From IMG/VR virus record IMGVR_UViG_2671180430_000008: 4,252 bases of DNA, one strand, 5' to 3'. Position 1 is the first letter of the stretch. Each line of letters opens with the position of its first letter. The notes below the pieces were generated by a model, which saw only the letters and a list, made by a program, of their open reading frames with translations, ran no database searches and was not told where the DNA came from. This DNA is from a virus (taxonomy: Duplodnaviria; Heunggongvirae; Uroviricota; Caudoviricetes). The position numbers were made by a program, and so were the translations under genes. Positions 1-4,252 of this stretch are shown one piece after another.

Positions 1-2
1 AT

Positions 3-50
3 ATTGAAGAAGCATGGGCTGAGCGGCAGTTAAAAAAGGTAACTAGGTAA
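3..50 (+). CDS. 3' end of an upstream CDS running off the left edge; by position possibly the C-terminus of a Q-like late antiterminator
   Basis: Open frame from the window edge (...IEEAWAERQLKKVTR*) stopping at 48-50, just upstream of a pR'-like promoter. Frame is ambiguous: another frame stops at 31-33. Too short to identify. Confidence 0.25.
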   Translation: MEEAWAERQLKKVTR

Positions 51-55
51 CAAGG

Positions 56-83
56 TTGATTTTTCCGGAATCTGTGGTAAATT
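56..83 (+). promoter_or_regulatory. pR'-like late promoter (-35 TTGATT 56-61, 16-nt spacer, extended -10 TGgTAAATT 75-83)
   Basis: Good sigma70 match. The segment 76-98 (ggtaaattcgtcataacgatggg) closely resembles the lambda pR'/qut region as I recall it (GGTAAATTTGACTCAACGATGGG). A terminator follows about 50 nt downstream, as with lambda 6S RNA. Confidence 0.55.
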
Positions 84-130
84 CGTCATAACGATGGGCG
101 TTTTATGCCTGACGTTAGAAGAGTTTCTAC

Positions 131-154
131 AACCCGCCGCCGAGCGGGTTTTTT
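131..154 (+). terminator. tR'-like rho-independent terminator
   Basis: Stem aacccgc (131-137) / gcgggtt (144-150), 6-nt loop, T-run 149-154. Lies downstream of the pR'-like promoter. Confidence 0.7.
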
Positions 155-274
155 ATGACTGAAATCGCGTCAGTACAGTAAACGCGCTGGTGGCGGTGAA
201 TACCTGTCTTTCAGCTTGCTGGCTTTTTCGACAAGAGTTATTGGTGTGTCACGTTAACCGGAAAAGGAAAAGAC

Positions 275-472
275 ATGCTAAAACAGCAGGATATGACAGA
301 AACCGCCAGAGTGGTGTTTAATGAATTAAGCGTTACCGAACCGGCGACAGTCGGGGAGATAGCGCAGAATACTTACCTTTCACGCGAACGCTGCCAGTTA
401 ATACTGACCCAGCTGGTTATGGCGGGTCTGGCAGACTATCAGTTCGGTTGTTACAGACGCCTTCCGCAGTGA
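275..472 (+). CDS. Small (65 aa) winged-helix/HTH-like DNA-binding protein, function unknown (PapI/FaeA-like pattern is a guess)
   Basis: Shine-Dalgarno AAGGA at 264-268, 6 nt before ATG 275. Segment TVGEIAQNTYLSRERCQLILTQLVMAGL looks like a helix-turn-helix. Uses rare AGA and ATA codons matching the downstream tRNAs. Stop codon lies inside the terminator hairpin. Confidence 0.55.
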   Translation: MLKQQDMTETARVVFNELSVTEPATVGEIAQNTYLSRERCQLILTQLVMAGLADYQFGCYRRLPQ

Positions 473-482
473 AGGCTTTTTT
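459..482 (+). terminator. Rho-independent terminator overlapping the stop of the 65-aa ORF
   Basis: Stem gccttc (459-464) / gaaggc (471-476), loop cgcagt, T-run 477-482. Confidence 0.6.
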
Positions 483-500
483 ATTTGTGGTAAATGGGCG

Positions 501-529
501 GCTGGTGGGTGTTAGGGGCACCCACCAGC
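501..529 (+). promoter_or_regulatory. Perfect 11-bp inverted repeat (stem-loop or operator-like site) in the leader of the methyltransferase gene
   Basis: gctggtgggtg (501-511) and cacccaccagc (519-529) are exact reverse complements, 7-nt spacer, no T-run after. Further hairpins at 572-590 and 595-613 precede ATG 623. Confidence 0.4.
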
Positions 530-622
530 CATCTGCTCATGCGTTGGGTTCACAAGCAAACCTCAGGCCCACTGCTTTGCGCAAAAGCAGAATGAGCCTA
601 TCAGAGACAGGCTTAATGATCC

Positions 623-1681
623 ATGCTTAATACTGTAAAAATATCCAGTTGTGAGTTAATCAACGCCGACTGCCTGGAATTTATCCGGTCGTTACCCGAA
701 AATTCTGTTGACCTGATAGTCACGGACCCGCCGTACTTTAAAGTGAAGCCTGAGGGCTGGGATAACCAGTGGAAGGGCGACGATGATTACCTGAAGTGGC
801 TGGACCAGTGTCTGGCGCAGTTCTGGCGGGTGCTGAAACCTGCCGGAAGTCTTTACCTGTTCTGTGGTCATCGCCTGGCATCTGATATCGAAATCATGAT
901 GCGTGAACGCTTCAGTGTGCTGAACCATATTATCTGGGCGAAGCCGTCCGGACGCTGGAACGGATGCAACAAGGAAAGCCTGCGGGCGTATTTCCCCGCC
1001 ACAGAGCGCATTCTGTTCGCGGAACATTATCAGGGGCCGTATCGTCCGAAAGATGCCGGGTATGCGGCGAAGGGCAGTGCACTGAAACAGCATGTGATGG
1101 CCCCGCTGATTTCTTACTTTCGTGATGCGCGAGCTGCCCTGGGGATAACGGCAAAACAGATTGCAGATGCCACAGGAAAGAAAAACATGGTGTCGCACTG
1201 GTTCAGTGCCGGTCAGTGGCAGTTGCCGAATGAAAGCGATTATCTGAAATTACAGGCGCTGTTTGCCCGGGTGGCAGAAGAGAAGCATCGGCGTGGTGAA
1301 CTGGAAAAGCTCCACCACCAGCTGGTGGATACGTATACCTCACTGAACCGGCAGTATGCGGAGCTGCTGAGTGAATATAAACATCTGCGGCGGTATTTTG
1401 GCGTGACGGTGCAGGTGCCGTATACCGATGTGTGGACGCATAAACCGGTGCAGTTCTATCCCGGGAAACATCCGTGCGAAAAACCGGCAGAAATGCTGCA
1501 GCAGATAATCAGCGCTAGCAGTCGTCCGGGTGACCTGATTGCAGATTTTTTCATGGGGTTGGGTTCGACAGTGAAAGCGGCACTGGCGCTCGGGCGTCGT
1601 GCAATTGGCGTTGAGCTGGAGACTGAACGTTTTGAGCAGACGGTTCGGGAAGTACAGGATTTAGTCAGCCAGAACGGATGA
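623..1681 (+). CDS. Beta-class DNA methyltransferase (N6-adenine type by DPPY motif; N4/N6 MTase family), apparently orphan
   Basis: 352-aa ORF. Catalytic motif IV DPPY at aa 35-38 (nt 725-736) after LPENSVDLIVT; AdoMet motif I DFFMGLGST at aa 308-316 (nt 1544-1570). Order IV...TRD...I is the beta-class arrangement, unlike Dam. No endonuclease gene nearby. Weak SD. Confidence 0.88.
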   Translation: MLNTVKISSCELINADCLEFIRSLPENSVDLIVTDPPYFKVKPEGWDNQWKGDDDYLKWLDQCLAQFWRVLKPAGSLYLFCGHRLASDIEIMMRERFSVLNHIIWAKPSGRWNGCNKESLRAYFPATERILFAEHYQGPYRPKDAGYAAKGSALKQHVMAPLISYFRDARAALGITAKQIADATGKKNMVSHWFSAGQWQLPNESDYLKLQALFARVAEEKHRRGELEKLHHQLVDTYTSLNRQYAELLSEYKHLRRYFGVTVQVPYTDVWTHKPVQFYPGKHPCEKPAEMLQQIISASSRPGDLIADFFMGLGSTVKAALALGRRAIGVELETERFEQTVREVQDLVSQNG

Positions 1682-1721
1682 TATTGAAGAATTAATTACG
1701 CGTCGTTATTATGCGGCTCCC

Positions 1722-1797
1722 GGCCCTTTAGCTCAGTGGTGAGAGCGAGCGACTCATAATCGCCAGGTCGCTGGTTCAAATCCAGCAAGGGCCACCA
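1722..1797 (+). tRNA. ileZ: tRNA-Ile2 (anticodon CAU, read as lysidine-CAU decoding AUA); formally could be elongator tRNA-Met
   Basis: Manual cloverleaf: acceptor ggccctt/aagggcc, D-arm gctc...gagc, anticodon loop ctCATaa, T-arm gctgg-ttcaaat-ccagc, discriminator A, encoded CCA. G1-C72 so not initiator. Near-identical in outline to E. coli ileX as recalled. ileZ symbol by analogy to Stx phages. Confidence 0.85.
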
Positions 1798-1804
1798 TCA
1801 CATA

Positions 1805-1881
1805 CCGCCATTAGCTCATCAGGAAAGAGCGCCAGCCTTCGAAGCTGGCTGCGCGGGGTTCAAGTCCCCGATGGCGGTCCA
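1805..1881 (+). tRNA. tRNA-Arg (anticodon UCG)
   Basis: Manual cloverleaf: acceptor ccgccat/atggcgg, D-arm gctc...gagc with A20, anticodon stem ccagc/gctgg, loop ctTCGaa (C35 present), T-arm cgggg-ttcaagt-ccccg, discriminator U, encoded CCA. This Arg isoacceptor is not in the E. coli K-12 chromosomal set as far as I recall. Confidence 0.75.
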
Positions 1882-1894
1882 TTATCTGCATCAT

Positions 1895-1971
1895 GCGTTG
1901 TTAGCTCAGCCGGACAGAGCAATTGCCTTCTAAGCAATCGGTCACTGGTTCGAATCCAGTACAACGCGCCA
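1895..1971 (+). tRNA. tRNA-Arg (anticodon UCU, decodes AGA)
   Basis: Manual cloverleaf: acceptor gcgttgt/acaacgc, D-arm gctc...gagc with A20, anticodon stem attgc/gcaat, loop ctTCTaa, T-arm actgg-ttcgaat-ccagt, discriminator G, encoded CCA. Confidence 0.88.
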
Positions 1972-2011: not shown

Positions 2012-2458
2012 AAATGTCTCACAATTCAGACGGTTGACAGTTGTCTGTTTTGCGGGGAGTTTGTTAAAAGAAACTGGCATGGTGAATCCCCCTGTGCGGA
2101 GGGGCAATCAGCGAGTAGGTATATGGGATAATCGCGGATTCAGGTGCTGGTACTGAATTCACCGGGAGGCACCCGGCATCATGCAATGGCACATAGCGCC
2201 ACTCTCCAGCCCTCTCCGGAGGGGCTTTTCTGTGCCGGATACATCACAGTTTCTGGAACCTTAGGTACTACAGTATCAGTCAGGGTGCTATATTTTCAGA
2301 TGTGATGAAAGCCTGTCAGCAGGCAGGGCGTATCGGAAATGACCCAGTAGAGAAAACGTTGACTCAGATACCGGTGCTGAGTTACCGGGAAACCGGCATC
2401 ACATGACCGCTATCCTGAGGTGTACTGGCAATAGCGGACACTACCATTTGTTCTTTTT

Positions 2459-3277
2459 TTAAGCAGCCATCTGATGATATTTTTCCCTGAAGGCTGCCGG
2501 GGAGATATTCCCCAGACGAGAGTGACGACGCTGACGATTGTAGAAAATCTCAATGTATTCCCGTATTACTGAGATGGCTTCATCCCGGTTATTAAAACGA
2601 TAGTGGCTCAGGCTCTCATTTTTCAGCGTTCCCCAGAAGCTTTCCATCGGAGCGTTGTCGTAACAGTTACCTTTACGCGACATTGATGTTTTCAGACCAG
2701 ACTGCTCCTGTATGACCCGGTAATCGTATGCGCAGTACTGTGAACCTCGATCAGAGTGGTGGATTAGCCCGGCAGGTGGGCGCTGGCTCCTGAGCGCCAT
2801 AAACAGGGCTTTACCTGTCAGCTCTTTTGTCATGCGCTCTCCCATGGCGTAGCCGACAATTTCGCACGTATAAACATCTTTGATGCCAGCGAGGTACAAC
2901 CATCCCTCCTGTGTGGCAACATACGTCAGGTCCGCCACCCAGACCTGATTTGGTGCTGTAGGAGCGAACGTCTGGTTCAGCAGATTTGGCGCAACTGGCA
3001 GATTGTGGTTCGAGTTCGTAGTCGCTCTGAACTTGCGTTTCTGCTTACAGCGTAGCCTTAGCTCCTTACGAAGACGTGCCAGTCGGTCACGACCAACGAT
3101 GATGCCATTCTCTGCCAGCTCCGTCTGGAGCCGCCGGGTTCCATATGTTTCGCGAGTGCGGATATGTGCCACCTTAATCTCCAGTTTTAGCCGCTCATCA
3201 CTTTGTTTTCTGTCTGAGGGTTCATGCTGTACCCAGTTGTAATAACCGCTCCTGGATACACCAAATACCTGACACAT
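2459..3277 (-). CDS. IS3-family transposase OrfB (DDE integrase/catalytic core)
   Basis: 272 aa from first Met. DDE-type segments WVADLTYV, HHSDRGSQY, CYDNAPMESF. N-terminal region EAMCQVFGVSRSGYYNW matches the IS3-family OrfB pattern. Normally expressed as an OrfAB fusion by -1 frameshift. Confidence 0.9.
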   Translation of the reverse strand: MCQVFGVSRSGYYNWVQHEPSDRKQSDERLKLEIKVAHIRTRETYGTRRLQTELAENGIIVGRDRLARLRKELRLRCKQKRKFRATTNSNHNLPVAPNLLNQTFAPTAPNQVWVADLTYVATQEGWLYLAGIKDVYTCEIVGYAMGERMTKELTGKALFMALRSQRPPAGLIHHSDRGSQYCAYDYRVIQEQSGLKTSMSRKGNCYDNAPMESFWGTLKNESLSHYRFNNRDEAISVIREYIEIFYNRQRRHSRLGNISPAAFREKYHQMAA

Positions 3278-3312
3278 CGCTTCAATGGGAAATTGTTGTC
3301 GCCATTGTTCGA

Positions 3313-3438
3313 TTAACGCGTATTTTTCAGCGACTCCTGTGCAAAATACGCTGTTGCTTTTTTTAATATATCTCGCTCAAGGCGAGCTTCATTTAACGCC
3401 TTACGAAAACTCCGGAGGGGCTGTTTATATTGATTTTG
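3313..3438 (-). pseudogene. Remnant of IS3-family orfA (C-terminal ~41 codons only)
   Basis: Minus-strand frame reads QNQYKQPLRSFRKALNEARLERDILKKATAYFAQESLKNTR*, stop at 3313-3315. An in-frame TGA lies at 3439-3441; no HTH-encoding N-terminal part follows. Confidence 0.6.
3358..3366 (-). other. Programmed -1 frameshift slippery site (A-run followed by G) at the orfA/orfB overlap of the IS
   Basis: Minus strand reads TTA AAA AAA GCA in the orfA frame (T7 at 3358-3364 on plus). OrfB lies in the -1 frame relative to orfA. Confidence 0.55.
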
Positions 3439-3454: not shown

Positions 3455-3488
3455 TCCTTATGGACTTTGTTGTTTTAGTCCATAAGGA
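3455..3488. repeat. Perfect 11-bp inverted repeat with 12-nt spacer
   Basis: tccttatggac (3455-3465) and gtccataagga (3478-3488) are exact reverse complements. Overlaps the stop codon of the 111-aa ORF and lies about 15-50 bp from the IS truncation point. Confidence 0.45.
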
Positions 3489-3793
3489 CATATTTGCAGA
3501 GTGCAACGGTTATTAAAGCATTCATTCAATACGTTATCTGTATTTGTAGGGCATTCCTGGCTATTTTTGATTGAATTCCAGAATGTTTTATTGAATGGTA
3601 CTACGTTGTAAATGGTTACAGGTAGCACTTTGTTATTGAGCATGATGCCTGTGTGAGTCAGTGTAAATATACTTTCAGGAGGTAAGAAAGCATCCGATTG
3701 ATACCAGATTATTAATTTTATTTTACTCCATATGACTGAAAAAGATATTCCGCATGATGGCTGGATAACTGTATCAATCACAATCCACTTCAT
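3458..3793 (-). CDS. Hypothetical protein, 111 aa, in the AT-rich island; unknown function, possibly the N-terminal fragment of a larger gene cut by the IS-associated deletion
   Basis: ATG at 3793 with Shine-Dalgarno AGGAAA (plus 3798-3803) and a sigma70-like promoter upstream. Trp-rich N-terminal half; four Cys at C89/C100/C105/C110. Its 3' end abuts the IS deletion junction. No family recognised. Confidence 0.45.
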
Positions 3794-3860: not shown

Positions 3861-4053
3861 CCATAGAGCAGAATTATTTTTCTGATGTTGTTTATTGTTT
3901 ATTTAAATGCAGGGTGGTTTATATCTCGTCTTGTAGTTTATCCATGCATATCTGCTTGATAATCAGGTTTTTATTTAAGGTATGGTTTTGTGTTTTTTCT
4001 GTATTACATGTCAGGTATTTTAAAGAATTATTTTTCAGATGGTGGAAAGAACC

Positions 4054-4180
4054 ATGGCATTTAAACACTATGATGTTGTCAGGGCGGCGCCGCCGTCAGA
4101 TCTTGCGGAAAAGCTGACACATAAACTGAAAGAGGGCTGGCAGCCGTTTGGTAGTCCGGTGGCCATAACCCCTTATACCC
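4054..4180 (+). pseudogene. 5' portion of a small phage gene (DUF1737-like, recalled from memory) interrupted by IS insertion
   Basis: Start ATG 4054 with GGAAAG-type SD (alternative ATG 4039 has none). Encodes MAFKHYDVVRAAPPSDLAEKLTHKLKEGWQPFGSPVAITPYT, then the frame runs directly into the IS terminus at 4181. Confidence 0.55.
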
Positions 4181-4252
4181 TGAGGTGTACTGGCAATAGC
4201 GGACACTACCATTTGTTCTTTTTTTAAGCAGCCATCTGATGATATTTTTCCC
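4181..4252 (-). mobile_element. Right end of a second IS3-family (IS600-like) copy, same orientation as the first, continuing past the window
   Basis: 4181-4252 is 72/72 identical to 2416-2487. Flanking 3 bp are ccc here and tcc at copy 1, so these are independent insertions. Confidence 0.85.

What the first reader, a model, noticed from the sequence alone, without database searches (positions are those of the whole stretch)
275..1681. Small winged-helix ORF plus orphan beta-class methyltransferase placed just after pR'/tR'
The two genes sit between the tR'-like terminator and the tRNAs, so they would be transcribed only when Q antiterminates, that is, late in lytic growth. That timing fits methylation of progeny DNA to escape host restriction. 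No endonuclease gene is present, so this is not a restriction-modification system. The 65-aa protein has an HTH-like segment of the kind seen in small methylation-linked regulators such as PapI/FaeA. Whether it controls, targets or is unrelated to the methyltransferase is unknown.
Basis: partly seen in the sequence, partly recalled or inferred. Interest (0 to 1): 0.5.

Follow-up and report, generated by a model that had tools for sequence, protein, structure and literature searches.

The report
Late phage promiscuous adenine-methylase module
The two genes are a decaying Shigella prophage copy of the known phage enzyme M.EcoGII, which methylates every adenine, and across enterobacterial phages this toxic enzyme almost always travels with a small winged-helix protein and a conserved folded RNA leader that nobody has described and that probably keep it in check.

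Summary
A 65-aa ORF (275-472) and a beta-class N6_N4 methyltransferase (623-1681) lie directly after a lambda-type pR' and tR' and before three tRNAs. No endonuclease is nearby.

The methyltransferase is not new. [quoted passage not shown] A methylome would therefore show no motif.

What appears undescribed:
- **Partner protein.** The small ORF is a real, purifying-selected winged-helix protein. It sits directly upstream of this methyltransferase family in 23/24 genomes, 76/77 close and 76/79 distant viral contigs.
- **Position.** In 9 of 10 diverse loci tested the module follows a Q gene, from three different Q families.
- **Leader.** The roughly 140-nt spacer (485-625) is the most conserved part of the module. 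It has covariation-supported structure, and its most stable fold sequesters the methyltransferase start codon. It matches no Rfam family.

PapI/FaeA kinship is not supported; the fold is a generic winged helix. The partner's mechanism is unresolved.

This copy is probably defunct. It carries a unique S313L change in the AdoMet motif, and IS600 disrupts the late region.

The parts
1..50 (+). 3' end of the Q antiterminator gene (context)
   Evidence: Window 3-50 aligns with the end of the annotated 'antitermination protein' of an E. coli prophage (L002 5227-6048). That protein is Pfam PF03589 Antiterm.
56..98 (+). lambda-type late promoter pR': -35 TTGATT (56-61), extended -10 TGgTAAATT (75-83), and promoter-proximal pause element AACGATGGG (90-98). 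Inferred start near 90.
   Evidence: The alignment with lambda 44494-44639 shows the same TAAATT-N6-AACGATGGG arrangement. The meaning of these elements in lambda comes from established knowledge. The generic scan missed the site because it matches only 8 of 12 hexamer positions.
131..156 (+). tR' intrinsic terminator (7-bp GC-rich stem plus T-run)
   Evidence: Terminator scan and fold of 89-160. A terminator with a different but self-complementary stem occupies this position in nearly all 21 aligned loci. Most Stx phages match the window only from position 131 onward, so this is a mosaic junction.
215..258 (+). conserved non-coding block upstream of the small ORF (CTTGCTG ... CAAGAGTTA ... 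TGTGTCA); function unknown
   Evidence: Invariant columns across 21 loci from Escherichia to Providencia. It does not fit a sigma-70 promoter. It can pair with codons 4-6 and 7-9 of the small ORF (88% of cells paired against 24-58% in slid controls), but no pair shows a compensatory change.
275..472 (+). 65-aa winged-helix protein, the dedicated partner of the methyltransferase
   Evidence: ORF; coding-type substitution pattern; phrog_331; AF2 model H4-16, H26-33, H37-49, strands 53-56 and 59-62, pLDDT 89.4; linkage to the methyltransferase in 23/24, 76/77 and 76/79 loci; helix 3 motif RCQL[IL]LTQ[LF]..AGL, with eight of its positions conserved in at least 95% of 90 distinct sequences.
459..486 (+). 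hairpin overlapping the small ORF stop codon; in this allele it is followed by TTTTTTATTT, making a second intrinsic terminator
   Evidence: Terminator scan. The hairpin is kept with different stem sequences in other loci, but the T-run is weak there.
485..625 (+). conserved structured 5' leader of the methyltransferase mRNA. It has two mutually exclusive folds; the more stable one pairs the UGAUC/AUG start region with an upstream segment.
   Evidence: Most conserved stretch of the module. Covariance model R1 gives one hit per locus, always ending at the methyltransferase ATG. Local-hairpin fold: 85.5% paired against 34-45% slid, 15 compensatory pairs. Alternative fold: 93.4% paired against 32-52% slid, 5 compensatory pairs. 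The start-sequestering fold is the MFE or near it. Window MFE -63.4 kcal/mol, z -3.96. No Rfam family matches.
623..1681 (+). beta-class N6-adenine DNA methyltransferase, ortholog of non-specific M.EcoGI/M.EcoGII; this allele carries S313L in motif I
   Evidence: Pfam N6_N4_Mtase. 324/349 identical to M.EcoGII as printed in the supplement of PMC11551740. 95% identical to the phage 1720a-02 enzyme, which PMC5778455 names as very similar. S313L is unique among 138 distinct homologs.
1722..1971 (+). tRNA cluster: Met(CAT) = ileZ, Arg(TCG) = argN, Arg(TCT) = argO (context; downstream limit of the module)
   Evidence: ARAGORN and Rfam tRNA hits. The same genes are annotated ileZ/argN/argO in Stx phages.

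Best explanation
**What it is.** This is the first module of a lambdoid late operon. It contains a small winged-helix protein, a structured leader, and a non-specific N6-adenine methyltransferase of the M.EcoGI/GII family.

**How it probably works.**
- In a lysogen, transcription from the constitutive pR' stops at tR'. In this allele a second terminator follows the small ORF. The toxic enzyme therefore stays silent.
- After induction, Q-modified RNA polymerase reads through. The enzyme then methylates adenines in replicating phage DNA regardless of sequence. Progeny are thereby protected against the many restriction systems that m6A blocks.
- Expression is restrained a second time at translation. 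The methyltransferase has no canonical Shine-Dalgarno sequence, and the most stable fold of its conserved 140-nt leader pairs the UGAUC/AUG region with an upstream segment.
- The winged-helix protein is a dedicated accessory of this enzyme family. My preferred reading is that it is a controller that recognises a conserved nucleic-acid target inside the module, either the leader RNA or its palindromic P4 element as DNA. In that role it would tune how much enzyme is made.

**Shown and inferred.**
- Shown here: gene identities, the winged-helix fold, the position after pR'/tR', the linkage, and the leader's conservation, covariation and energetics.
- Taken from the literature for a 93%-identical enzyme: non-specificity, silence in lysogens and toxicity.
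- Inferred: the anti-restriction role, translational occlusion, and the partner's mode of action.

**This copy.** The Shigella copy in the window is probably a relic, because of S313L in the AdoMet loop and IS600 insertions in the late region.
For: **Enzyme identity.**
- Pfam N6_N4_Mtase, E 7.9e-42.
- 93% identical to M.EcoGII and 95% to the phage 1720a-02 enzyme cited in PMC5778455.
- The M.EcoGII paper and a 2025 review state that the enzyme is non-specific, silent in lysogens, toxic, and presumed anti-restriction.

**Late-operon position.**
- lambda-like pR' and tR'.
- No sigma-70-like site between 156 and 622.
- The upstream neighbour is a Q antiterminator in 9 of 10 diverse loci, from three Pfam Q families. 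Downstream genes are holin, lysozyme or morons, never an endonuclease.

**Partner protein.**
- Coding-type selection and a confident winged-helix model.
- Family confined to this context: 334 homologs, and 61 representatives among 1.84 billion proteins.
- Linkage 23/24, 76/77 and 76/79, maintained down to about 41% protein identity.
- Polar residues R39, Q41, T45 and Q46, of which Q41, T45 and Q46 are 96-100% conserved (R39 81%), fall on one face of helix 3 by helical-wheel geometry.

**Leader.**
- Spacer length is held at 131-154 nt in the two full-leader clades, and it is the most conserved segment of the module.
- One covariance-model hit per locus.
- Both folds are far better paired than slid controls and carry compensatory changes.
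- The start-sequestering fold is a median 8.4 kcal/mol more stable.
- z-score -3.96 for the window's leader.
- P4 keeps full dyad symmetry through its centre in at least seven sequence variants.
Against: - No expression or methylation data exist for this locus.
- M.EcoGII is fully active without the small protein when cloned (PMC5778455), so the partner is not needed for catalysis.
- Seven loci carry the methyltransferase without the small ORF or the reverse.
- One clade (L170-L186) has a spacer shortened to 76-102 nt. Of the 14 such loci searched, none was found by the covariance model.
- Most compensatory changes trace to a few clade splits, so the number of independent events is small. Alignment A5 was fitted to the first fold.
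- The small proteins are mostly acidic: median pI 5.1, and 70 of 90 have net charge of -1 or lower. This is unusual for a stand-alone 65-aa nucleic-acid binder and leaves a protein-protein role open.
- The structure searches found only generic winged helices.
- The window's allele has S313L where 137 of 138 homologs have Ser, and the prophage is broken by IS600. The mechanism may not operate in this genome.
Confidence: 0.7

Rival explanations
1. The small winged-helix protein acts by protein-protein contact. It binds the methyltransferase (which, per PMC7544214, is thought to work as a dimer) and inhibits, activates or redirects it, for example away from RNA or host DNA. The leader regulates translation independently.
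For: - The proteins are mostly acidic (median pI 5.1).
- Helix 3 is rich in hydrophobic residues.
- The best structural and profile matches are the N-terminal winged-helix dimerisation domains of SAM-dependent O-methyltransferases such as RedM, PigF, SibL and DsyB, though with weak statistics.
- The synteny is near-obligate.
- The enzyme is toxic, so an inhibitor would be useful.
Against: - By helical-wheel geometry the conserved hydrophobic residues of helix 3 fall on the core face and the conserved exposed ones are polar, which is a typical recognition-helix pattern.
- Very different small-protein alleles (about 50% identity) occur with methyltransferases that are 72-86% identical to the window's. 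Co-adaptation of an interface is therefore not evident.
- M.EcoGII needs no partner in vitro.
- No complex model could be computed.
Confidence: 0.25
2. The small protein has its own job and is merely co-selected with the enzyme. One example would be neutralising host restriction enzymes that attack m6A-containing DNA (Mrr-like or winged-helix-nuclease Type IV systems), to which a hyper-methylated phage would be exposed.
For: - Hyper-adenine-methylated DNA is a substrate of m6A-dependent restriction (PMC11037411 uses M.EcoGII-methylated DNA for exactly this).
- The small protein is acidic.
- Linkage without a catalytic requirement.
Against: - There is no homology or structural similarity to any known anti-restriction protein.
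- The idea does not explain the conserved leader or the conserved polar face of helix 3.
- It is purely inferential.
Confidence: 0.1
3. The spacer's conservation reflects a DNA-level element, such as an operator, roadblock site or recombination junction, rather than an RNA structure. The apparent RNA folds are a by-product of inverted repeats.
For: - P4 is a perfect DNA palindrome through its centre in at least seven variants (AGCGCT, AACGTT, ACGCGT, TGCGCA, GTGCAC, GTCGAC, GTACAC). These include symmetric double changes inside what would be an RNA loop.
- The outer half-sites GCTT/AAGC lie about one helical turn apart.
Against: - Long-range pairs 60-75 nt apart covary (P1, and P6 with its three compensatory pairs). 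A local DNA palindrome would not produce this.
- The element always ends precisely at the start codon.
- The fold z-score is -3.96.
- The two readings are compatible: P4 could be an operator inside a structured leader.
Confidence: 0.2
4. In this genome the pair is non-functional debris of a dead prophage and has no present role.
For: - S313L in motif I is unique among 138 distinct homologs.
- A truncated IS600 lies downstream, and a second IS600 end cuts the DUF1737/esterase gene.
- The exact allele is fixed in Shigella on about 1000 contigs.
- Sakai Sp5 shows that this module does get deleted, leaving a 3' remnant.
Against: - Both ORFs, the leader, pR' and tR' are intact.
- The effect of S313L is untested.
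- This rival concerns only this copy, not the module as a type.
Confidence: 0.5

Closest known systems
M.EcoGII / M.EcoGI of E. coli O104:H4 (non-specific beta-class adenine methyltransferase; Murray et al. 2018, PMC5778455)
   Same: About 93% protein identity, the same length class, the same DPPY...FxGxG order and a prophage location. The closest relative of M.EcoGII among the fetched loci (L091, 96.9% identical) has the same small ORF and leader upstream.
   Different: The window's allele has S313L in motif I. The published work treats the enzyme alone. The papers I could search describe neither the upstream winged-helix gene nor the leader.
Phage Mu com-mom (a small activator protein plus a start-sequestering hairpin controlling a toxic late DNA-modification gene)
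   Same: A toxic adenine-modifying enzyme that is silent in lysogens; review PMC12707154 groups Mom and M.EcoGII together. A gene for a protein of about 62-65 aa lies immediately upstream, and the modification gene's translation start is buried in RNA structure. The Com mechanism itself is from established knowledge.
   Different: Com is a zinc-finger RNA binder whose gene overlaps mom. Here the protein is a winged helix with no CxxC pairs, and the leader is 140 nt long with several helices. Transcription depends on Q antitermination rather than on the C activator and Dam. RNA binding by the small protein is not shown.
Controller (C) proteins of Type II restriction-modification systems
   Same: A small DNA-binding-type protein encoded just upstream in the same operon as a methylation-related gene, with a palindrome nearby.
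   Different: C proteins have Xre-type helix-turn-helix folds and bind C-boxes upstream of their own gene to time endonuclease expression. Here there is no endonuclease, the fold is a winged helix, and the palindrome lies downstream of the small gene.
PapI / FaeA
   Same: A small single-domain winged-helix protein with some connection to adenine methylation.
   Different: No FaeA Pfam match at E<=1. No PapI in a PDB profile search at E<=10 or in the Foldseek top 50. The genomic context is different: a phage late operon rather than a fimbrial switch with Lrp and Dam sites.
pR'-tR' short transcripts of lambdoid phages (lambda 6S RNA; StxS of Stx phages, PMC7547250)
   Same: A constitutive late promoter followed by an intrinsic terminator, read through only with Q. 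The module begins at that terminator.
   Different: Here the pR'-to-tR' distance is only about 65 nt, against 258 nt in Sp5 and Sp15. Sp5 itself has lost the methylase module and keeps only its last ~110 nt.
Delayed-folding translational control (phage MS2 maturation gene; hok mRNA)
   Same: A leader whose equilibrium fold hides the start site, while local hairpins that can form first during transcription leave it open. The known systems are cited from established knowledge.
   Different: No kinetic data exist here. This is only a mechanistic analogy.

Membership tests
Beta-class amino-methyltransferases (Pfam N6_N4_Mtase, PF01555) | Profile match above the curated gathering score | tested here: met
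   144.1 bits against a cut-off of 26.7, E 7.9e-42, covering residues 29-340.
Beta-class amino-methyltransferases (Pfam N6_N4_Mtase, PF01555) | Catalytic DPPY motif N-terminal to the AdoMet-binding FxGxG motif, with a recognition domain between them | tested here: met
   DPPY at residues 35-38 and FMGLG at 310-314. This order is defined as beta class in PMC5778455.
M.EcoGI/M.EcoGII family (non-specific adenine methyltransferases of lambdoid prophages) | Close sequence identity to the characterised enzymes (GI and GII are 95% identical to each other; homologs at 92-94% similarity are predicted non-specific) | tested here: met
   324/349 = 93% against the M.EcoGII sequence printed in PMC11551740. 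That machine-read copy has a few errors. The 92-94% precedent is in PMC6602927.
M.EcoGI/M.EcoGII family (non-specific adenine methyltransferases of lambdoid prophages) | Methylates adenine in any sequence context | not testable with these tools
   Requires a methylome or an enzyme assay.
M.EcoGI/M.EcoGII family (non-specific adenine methyltransferases of lambdoid prophages) | Intact AdoMet-binding motif I (F-M-G-S-G) | tested here: inconclusive
   The window has F-M-G-L-G, while 137 of 138 distinct homologs have Ser. FxGxG is formally kept, but the effect of Leu is unknown.
Restriction-modification system | A cognate restriction endonuclease gene adjacent to the methyltransferase | tested here: not met
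   No such ORF is in the window. Neighbours in 10 diverse loci are Q, holin, lysozyme or morons.
PapI/FaeA family (Pfam FaeA) | Sequence-profile match to the family | tested here: not met
   No FaeA hit at E<=1 in Pfam. No PapI among PDB sequences at E<=10 with a 22-sequence profile.
PapI/FaeA family (Pfam FaeA) | Acts with Lrp at Dam (GATC) sites of a fimbrial phase switch | not tested
   The context here is a phage late operon. No pap-like regulatory region is present in the window.
TrmB family transcriptional regulators (the name NCBI gives the small ORF) | Pfam TrmB match above the gathering score | tested here: not met
   18 bits against a cut-off of 25.6, E 0.0026. No NCBIfam model matches. 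The name reflects only the generic winged-helix fold.
Winged-helix (wHTH) fold | H1-strand-H2-H3-hairpin wing topology | tested here: met
   AF2 model with pLDDT 89.4 and pTM 0.75: H4-16, E24-25, H26-33, H37-49, E53-56, E59-62. TM-scores normalised to the query are 0.6-0.84 against IclR, MarR, Z-alpha and SelB winged-helix domains.
Mu Com-type translational activators | Zinc-finger protein (paired CxxC) that binds the leader of the modification gene | tested here: not met
   There are only two Cys residues (C40, C59) and no CxxC pairs, and the fold is a winged helix. RNA binding is not testable here.
Any described RNA family (Rfam 15) for the 485-625 leader | Covariance-model match | tested here: not met
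   No + strand hit at E<=1 over 485-625. There is only a sub-threshold P26 hit on the minus strand (24 bits against a gathering score of 36). AgvB and AsxR models exist in Rfam and did not match.

The most novel reading that the evidence does not exclude
The 65-aa winged-helix protein and the 140-nt two-state leader together form a previously undescribed control device dedicated to M.EcoGII-type promiscuous methyltransferases. The leader holds the start codon shut by default. The small protein, the first product of the late transcript, binds a conserved element of the module (the leader RNA or its P4 palindrome) to open or cap translation. This would be a functional analogue of Mu com-mom, built from unrelated parts and conserved across lambdoid phages of Enterobacterales.
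Probability: 0.35. Interest if true: 0.65.

Novelty: new variant of a known kind. Interest (0 to 1): 0.45.

Why it matters
M.EcoGII is the textbook truly non-specific adenine methyltransferase and a widely used reagent, for example in the chromatin and RNA labelling and engineering work of PMC11551740. Its natural biology is known only as "silent in lysogens, toxic, probably anti-restriction".

This analysis shows that the enzyme family almost never occurs alone. It comes with a dedicated winged-helix partner and a conserved structured leader, always as the first cargo after the Q-controlled late promoter.

That turns an open question into testable constructs: how does a phage safely deploy an enzyme that would methylate every adenine in DNA and RNA? 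It also points to a possible natural modulator of M.EcoGII and to a candidate new cis-regulatory RNA.

For this particular window the practical message is more modest. It is a decaying Shigella copy of a known gene.

Tried and rejected
- **lambda orf-64.** It occupies the equivalent position after Q but shows no similarity to the small ORF.
- **PapI/FaeA, TrmB, NCBIfam and PADLOC membership of the small protein.** No significant match in any of them.
- **Known prophage sRNAs as an explanation for the spacer.** AgvB and AsxR have Rfam models and did not hit. The Pas sRNAs and STnc100 lie elsewhere. StxS is the pR'-tR' transcript. Tree et al. 2014 describe sRNAs at the downstream moron site.
- **A leader peptide in the spacer.** This is rejected. 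One-nucleotide indels break the frame, and the ATG is lost in L169.
- **A sigma-70 or sigma-54 promoter in the conserved block at 215-258.** The hexamers do not fit (and direct reading).
- **A pseudoknot between that block and the 5' end of the small ORF.** Pairing potential is high, but no pair shows a compensatory change, so it remains a lead only.
- **Structural neighbours that could assign a function to the small protein.** Foldseek against the PDB and BFVD gave only generic winged helices. The afdb50 library was unavailable.
- **Sakai Sp5 as a reference for the module.** It lacks the module and keeps only a 3' remnant.
Full report
**1. What is in the window**

The window is the Q-to-lysis junction of a lambdoid prophage. 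In order it contains:
- the 3' end of a Q antiterminator gene (1-50);
- a late promoter (56-98) and a terminator (131-156);
- a 65-aa ORF (275-472), then a hairpin with a T-run (459-486), then a 150-nt spacer;
- a 352-aa methyltransferase ORF (623-1681);
- three tRNAs (1722-1971) and a terminator (1986-2003);
- an STnc100-type sRNA (2048-2237);
- a truncated IS600 on the minus strand;
- an IraM-like ORF on the minus strand;
- a DUF1737 ORF cut by a second IS600 end.

The same Q / small ORF / methylase / tRNA arrangement is annotated in many Stx2-converting phages and in non-Stx E. coli prophages. The window's exact methyltransferase protein is a "MULTISPECIES Shigella" sequence seen on about 1000 contigs. 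No complete E. coli genome matches at 95% identity or more over the full length. The source is therefore a Shigella prophage remnant.

**2. Check of the observation**

Both ORFs are real.
- *Methyltransferase.* The large ORF is a Pfam N6_N4_Mtase (E 7.9e-42). DPPY lies at residues 35-38 and FxGxG at 310-314, which is the beta-class order.
- *Small ORF.* It evolves as a protein. Across 15 alleles, pairwise differences fall 913:818:2928 on codon positions 1, 2 and 3, and 58 of 65 third positions vary. AlphaFold2 with a 22-sequence alignment gives a confident canonical winged helix (pLDDT 89.4; H4-16, H26-33, H37-49, wing strands 53-56 and 59-62).
Window 75-98 (TGgTAAATT-cgtcat-AACGATGGG) aligns with lambda pR', sharing the -10 TAAATT and, six bases later, AACGATGGG. 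From established knowledge, that second element is the sigma-70-dependent pause element where Q loads. tR' is a 7-bp GC-rich hairpin followed by a T-run. The short pR' transcript would be about 65 nt.
- *No internal promoter.* The scan found no sigma-70-like promoter between tR' and the methyltransferase. That scan also missed pR' itself, so weak promoters cannot be excluded.

**3. Identity of the methyltransferase**
- The protein is 324/349 (93%) identical to M.EcoGII as printed in the supplement of PMC11551740. That machine-read copy contains a few obvious errors.
- It is 95% identical to the enzyme of phage 1720a-02. Murray et al. name that enzyme as very similar to M.EcoGII.
- M.EcoGI and M.EcoGII are 95% identical to each other, and both methylate adenine in any context. 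They are not expressed in the lysogen, and constitutive expression is deleterious. The authors propose that they are switched on at induction to overcome restriction.
- The enzyme and the proposed role are therefore already known.

**4. The small protein is a dedicated partner**

*Family size.* The family is tiny and confined to Enterobacterales prophages. There are 334 homologs in 5.8 billion clusters and 61 representatives in 1.84 billion proteins.

*Linkage to the methyltransferase.*

| Starting point | Set searched | Pair intact |
|---|---|---|
| Small protein | Species-level genome loci, Escherichia to Providencia, Mixta and Mangrovibacter | 23 of 24 (methyltransferase 142-154 nt downstream) |
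| Window's methyltransferase | Close viral contigs with enough upstream flank | 76 of 77 |
| Providencia-type methyltransferase (62% identical) | Distant viral contigs | 76 of 79 |

- The one genomic exception (L020) keeps the small ORF and the spacer but has lost the enzyme.
- In the distant set the small protein has drifted to about 41-46% identity.
- The Stx2c phages, which seemed to match only from position 492, carry a divergent allele (50% identity) at the same place.

*Flanking genes.* In 9 of 10 diverse loci the gene just upstream is a Q antiterminator, drawn from three different Pfam Q families. Downstream are holin, lysozyme or moron genes, and never an endonuclease. The module is thus a cassette that sits as first cargo after the Q-controlled promoter, whatever the Q type.

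**5. What kind of protein it is**
- It has no specific family. TrmB, MarR and DprA_WH hits are all below their cut-offs and there is no FaeA hit. There is no NCBIfam model and nothing meaningful in PADLOC.
- A profile search of PDB sequences finds no PapI. Foldseek against the PDB and viral models returns only generic winged helices with E above 0.001. The best hits are the N-terminal winged-helix domains of SAM-dependent O-methyltransferases, IclR and MarR regulators, Z-alpha, SelB and MotA.
- Across 90 distinct sequences the positions conserved in at least 95% are M1, T8, A11 and, in and just after helix 3, C40, Q41, L42, L44, T45, Q46, A50 and G51.
- On a helical wheel, I43, L47, C40, L44 and V48 form one hydrophobic face, presumably the core. 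R39, Q41, T45 and Q46 form the opposite, polar face. That is the pattern of a recognition helix with a conserved target. This step is inference from geometry.
- Against nucleic-acid binding, most alleles are acidic: median pI 5.1, and net charge of -1 or lower in 70 of 90.
- I therefore keep three mechanisms open: a controller that binds a nucleic-acid target in the module (preferred, about 0.45), a binding partner of the enzyme (about 0.25), and an independent counter-defence function (about 0.1).

**6. The spacer is a conserved structured leader**

*Conservation.* The 150-nt gap is the best-conserved stretch of the whole module. Its length is nearly fixed. One-nucleotide indels and a lost ATG rule out coding.

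*Covariance model.* A model built on a five-helix local fold finds exactly one hit per locus in 86 of 100 sources, always ending at the methyltransferase ATG. This includes L020, where the enzyme is gone.

*Support for the two folds, scored on the 56 distinct aligned sequences.*

| Fold | Cells paired | Slid controls | Pairs with change on both sides | Cells with such a change | Shuffles reaching it (paired %) |
|---|---|---|---|---|---|
| Local hairpins (P1-P5) | 85.5% | 34-45% | 15 | 117 (10-48 in slid controls) | 0 of 500 |
| Alternative (P1' and P6) | 93.4% | 32-52% | 5 | 55 (1-18 in slid controls) | 0 of 500 |

*The alternative fold.* It reuses the CACAAGC/CACGGAC segment. AUGGG pairs with CUCAU. 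GGUCAC..AAGC pairs with GCUU..UGAUC, immediately 5' of the AUG. Three of its compensatory pairs lie in the helix that covers the translation start. The alignment was fitted to the first fold, not to this one.

*Energetics.* The start-sequestering fold is the minimum-energy or near-minimum fold in most sequences, a median 8.4 kcal/mol below the local fold. For the window's leader the MFE is -63.4 kcal/mol with z = -3.96, and 0 of 200 shuffles fold as well. The AUG itself is paired.

*Start region.* The methyltransferase has no canonical Shine-Dalgarno sequence. The near-invariant CUGAUCUAUG offers only UGAUC, which from established knowledge is complementary to GAUCA near the 3' end of 16S rRNA.

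*Databases and literature.* No Rfam family matches. The published prophage sRNAs lie elsewhere.

*Caveats.*
- Much of the covariation comes from a few clade splits.
- One clade (L170-L186) has a truncated spacer that the model does not find.
- Hairpin P4 is a perfect DNA palindrome through its centre in at least seven variants. It may also, or instead, be a protein operator.

**7. How it most likely works**
- *Shown.* The anatomy and its conservation.
- *From the literature for a 93%-identical enzyme.* Non-specific m6A activity, silence in lysogens and toxicity.
- *Inferred: transcription.* In the lysogen, pR' transcripts end at tR' (and at the second terminator in this allele). After induction, Q-modified polymerase reads through.
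- *Inferred: order of synthesis.* The small protein is made first. Methyltransferase translation is limited by a leader that hides the start at equilibrium.
- *Inferred: escape from repression.* Either nascent transcripts are briefly open, because the local hairpins can form before the 3' strand of P6 is made, or the small protein shifts the balance.
- *Inferred: outcome.* The enzyme then blankets replicating phage DNA with m6A, protecting progeny from m6A-sensitive restriction.
- *Nearest functional analogue.* Mu com-mom. Its mechanism is cited from established knowledge, and the grouping of Mom with M.EcoGII is in PMC12707154.

**8. This particular copy**

The window's enzyme has Leu at position 313 inside motif I (F-M-G-S-G), where 137 of 138 distinct homologs have Ser. 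The late region downstream is interrupted by a truncated IS600, and a second IS600 end cuts the esterase gene. Sakai Sp5 shows the end point of such decay: only the last ~110 nt of the methylase gene remain in front of ileZ. I put the chance that the Shigella copy is non-functional at about 0.5.

**9. Verdict**
It is wrong on PapI/FaeA, and it did not recognise that the enzyme is a known non-specific one.
- As a methyltransferase the finding is ordinary.
- The near-obligate winged-helix partner and the two-state leader are, as far as my searches reach, undescribed and directly testable. I rate the whole as a new variant of a known kind, with interest 0.45.

Noticed in passing
window 2048-2237 (+); weak partial second copy 2276-2464: A full-length match to the Rfam sRNA STnc100 (123.6 bits against a gathering score of 47), just after the tRNAs and a terminator. 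A 2026 preprint relates STnc100 to the prophage sRNA PasD, which lies upstream of the esterase gene.
   Followed up: partly
window 2400-3405 (-) and about 4179-4252: A truncated IS600 (99.4% identical to annotated IS600; orfB at 2459-3277 is intact and the orfA end is missing). A second copy of the same IS end (about 74 nt repeated at 2414-2487 and 4179-4252) cuts the DUF1737 ORF at 4039-4227, which is the N-terminus of the NanS-p-type esterase in intact prophages.
   Followed up: partly
window 3458-3793 (-): An IraM-like anti-adapter protein gene (NCBIfam NF007393, E 6.5e-47; phrog_4407) in an AT-rich stretch on the opposite strand. It is a moron within the late region.
   Followed up: no
window 1684-1712 (+): The only sigma-70-like promoter that the scan found in 1-2100 (TTGAAG-17-TATTAT). 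It lies directly upstream of tRNA-Met(CAT)/ileZ, so the tRNAs may be expressed independently of Q.
   Followed up: no
window 215-258 (+): An invariant non-coding block (CTTGCTG, CAGAGTTA, TGT.TGTCA) about 45 nt upstream of the small ORF in all clades. It is not a sigma-70 promoter. CTTGCTG is complementary to codons 4-6 of the small ORF, which may explain why the low-confidence N-terminus MLKQQDMT is so conserved. No compensatory changes were seen.
   Followed up: partly
window 569-587 (+); alignment A5 columns 92-113: Hairpin P4 of the leader is a perfect DNA palindrome through its centre in at least seven sequence variants. These include symmetric double changes inside the would-be RNA loop (AGCGCT/AACGTT, GTGCAC/GTCGAC). 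This suggests a dimeric protein operator or template-switch mutation.
   Followed up: partly
window 1559-1561 (codon 313 of the methyltransferase): Ser-to-Leu substitution in AdoMet motif I, unique among 138 distinct homologs but fixed in Shigella on about 1000 contigs.
   Followed up: partly
window about 131; phage hits H2-H20: Most Stx phages match the window only from position 131 (the tR' hairpin) onward, while the Q/pR' part differs. This is a mosaic junction exactly at the terminator.
   Followed up: no
L188 (Sakai Sp5) 910-1026: The archetypal Stx2a prophage Sp5 lacks the module. It retains the last ~110 nt of the methylase gene (…VKAAMALGRRAIGVELESGRFEQTVREVQNVVSQNG*) directly upstream of ileZ, which is a deletion scar.
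   Followed up: partly
L021 (Providencia) 6523-8021: Directly downstream of the methyltransferase this prophage carries a eukaryotic-type Ser/Thr protein kinase and a PP2C phosphatase as late-operon morons.
   Followed up: no
L160, L165, L168 (three prophages of one IMG genome, 2846902752): Two of the three prophages have the leader plus methyltransferase without the small ORF, and the third has the full pair. The small protein could therefore be supplied in trans.
   Followed up: no
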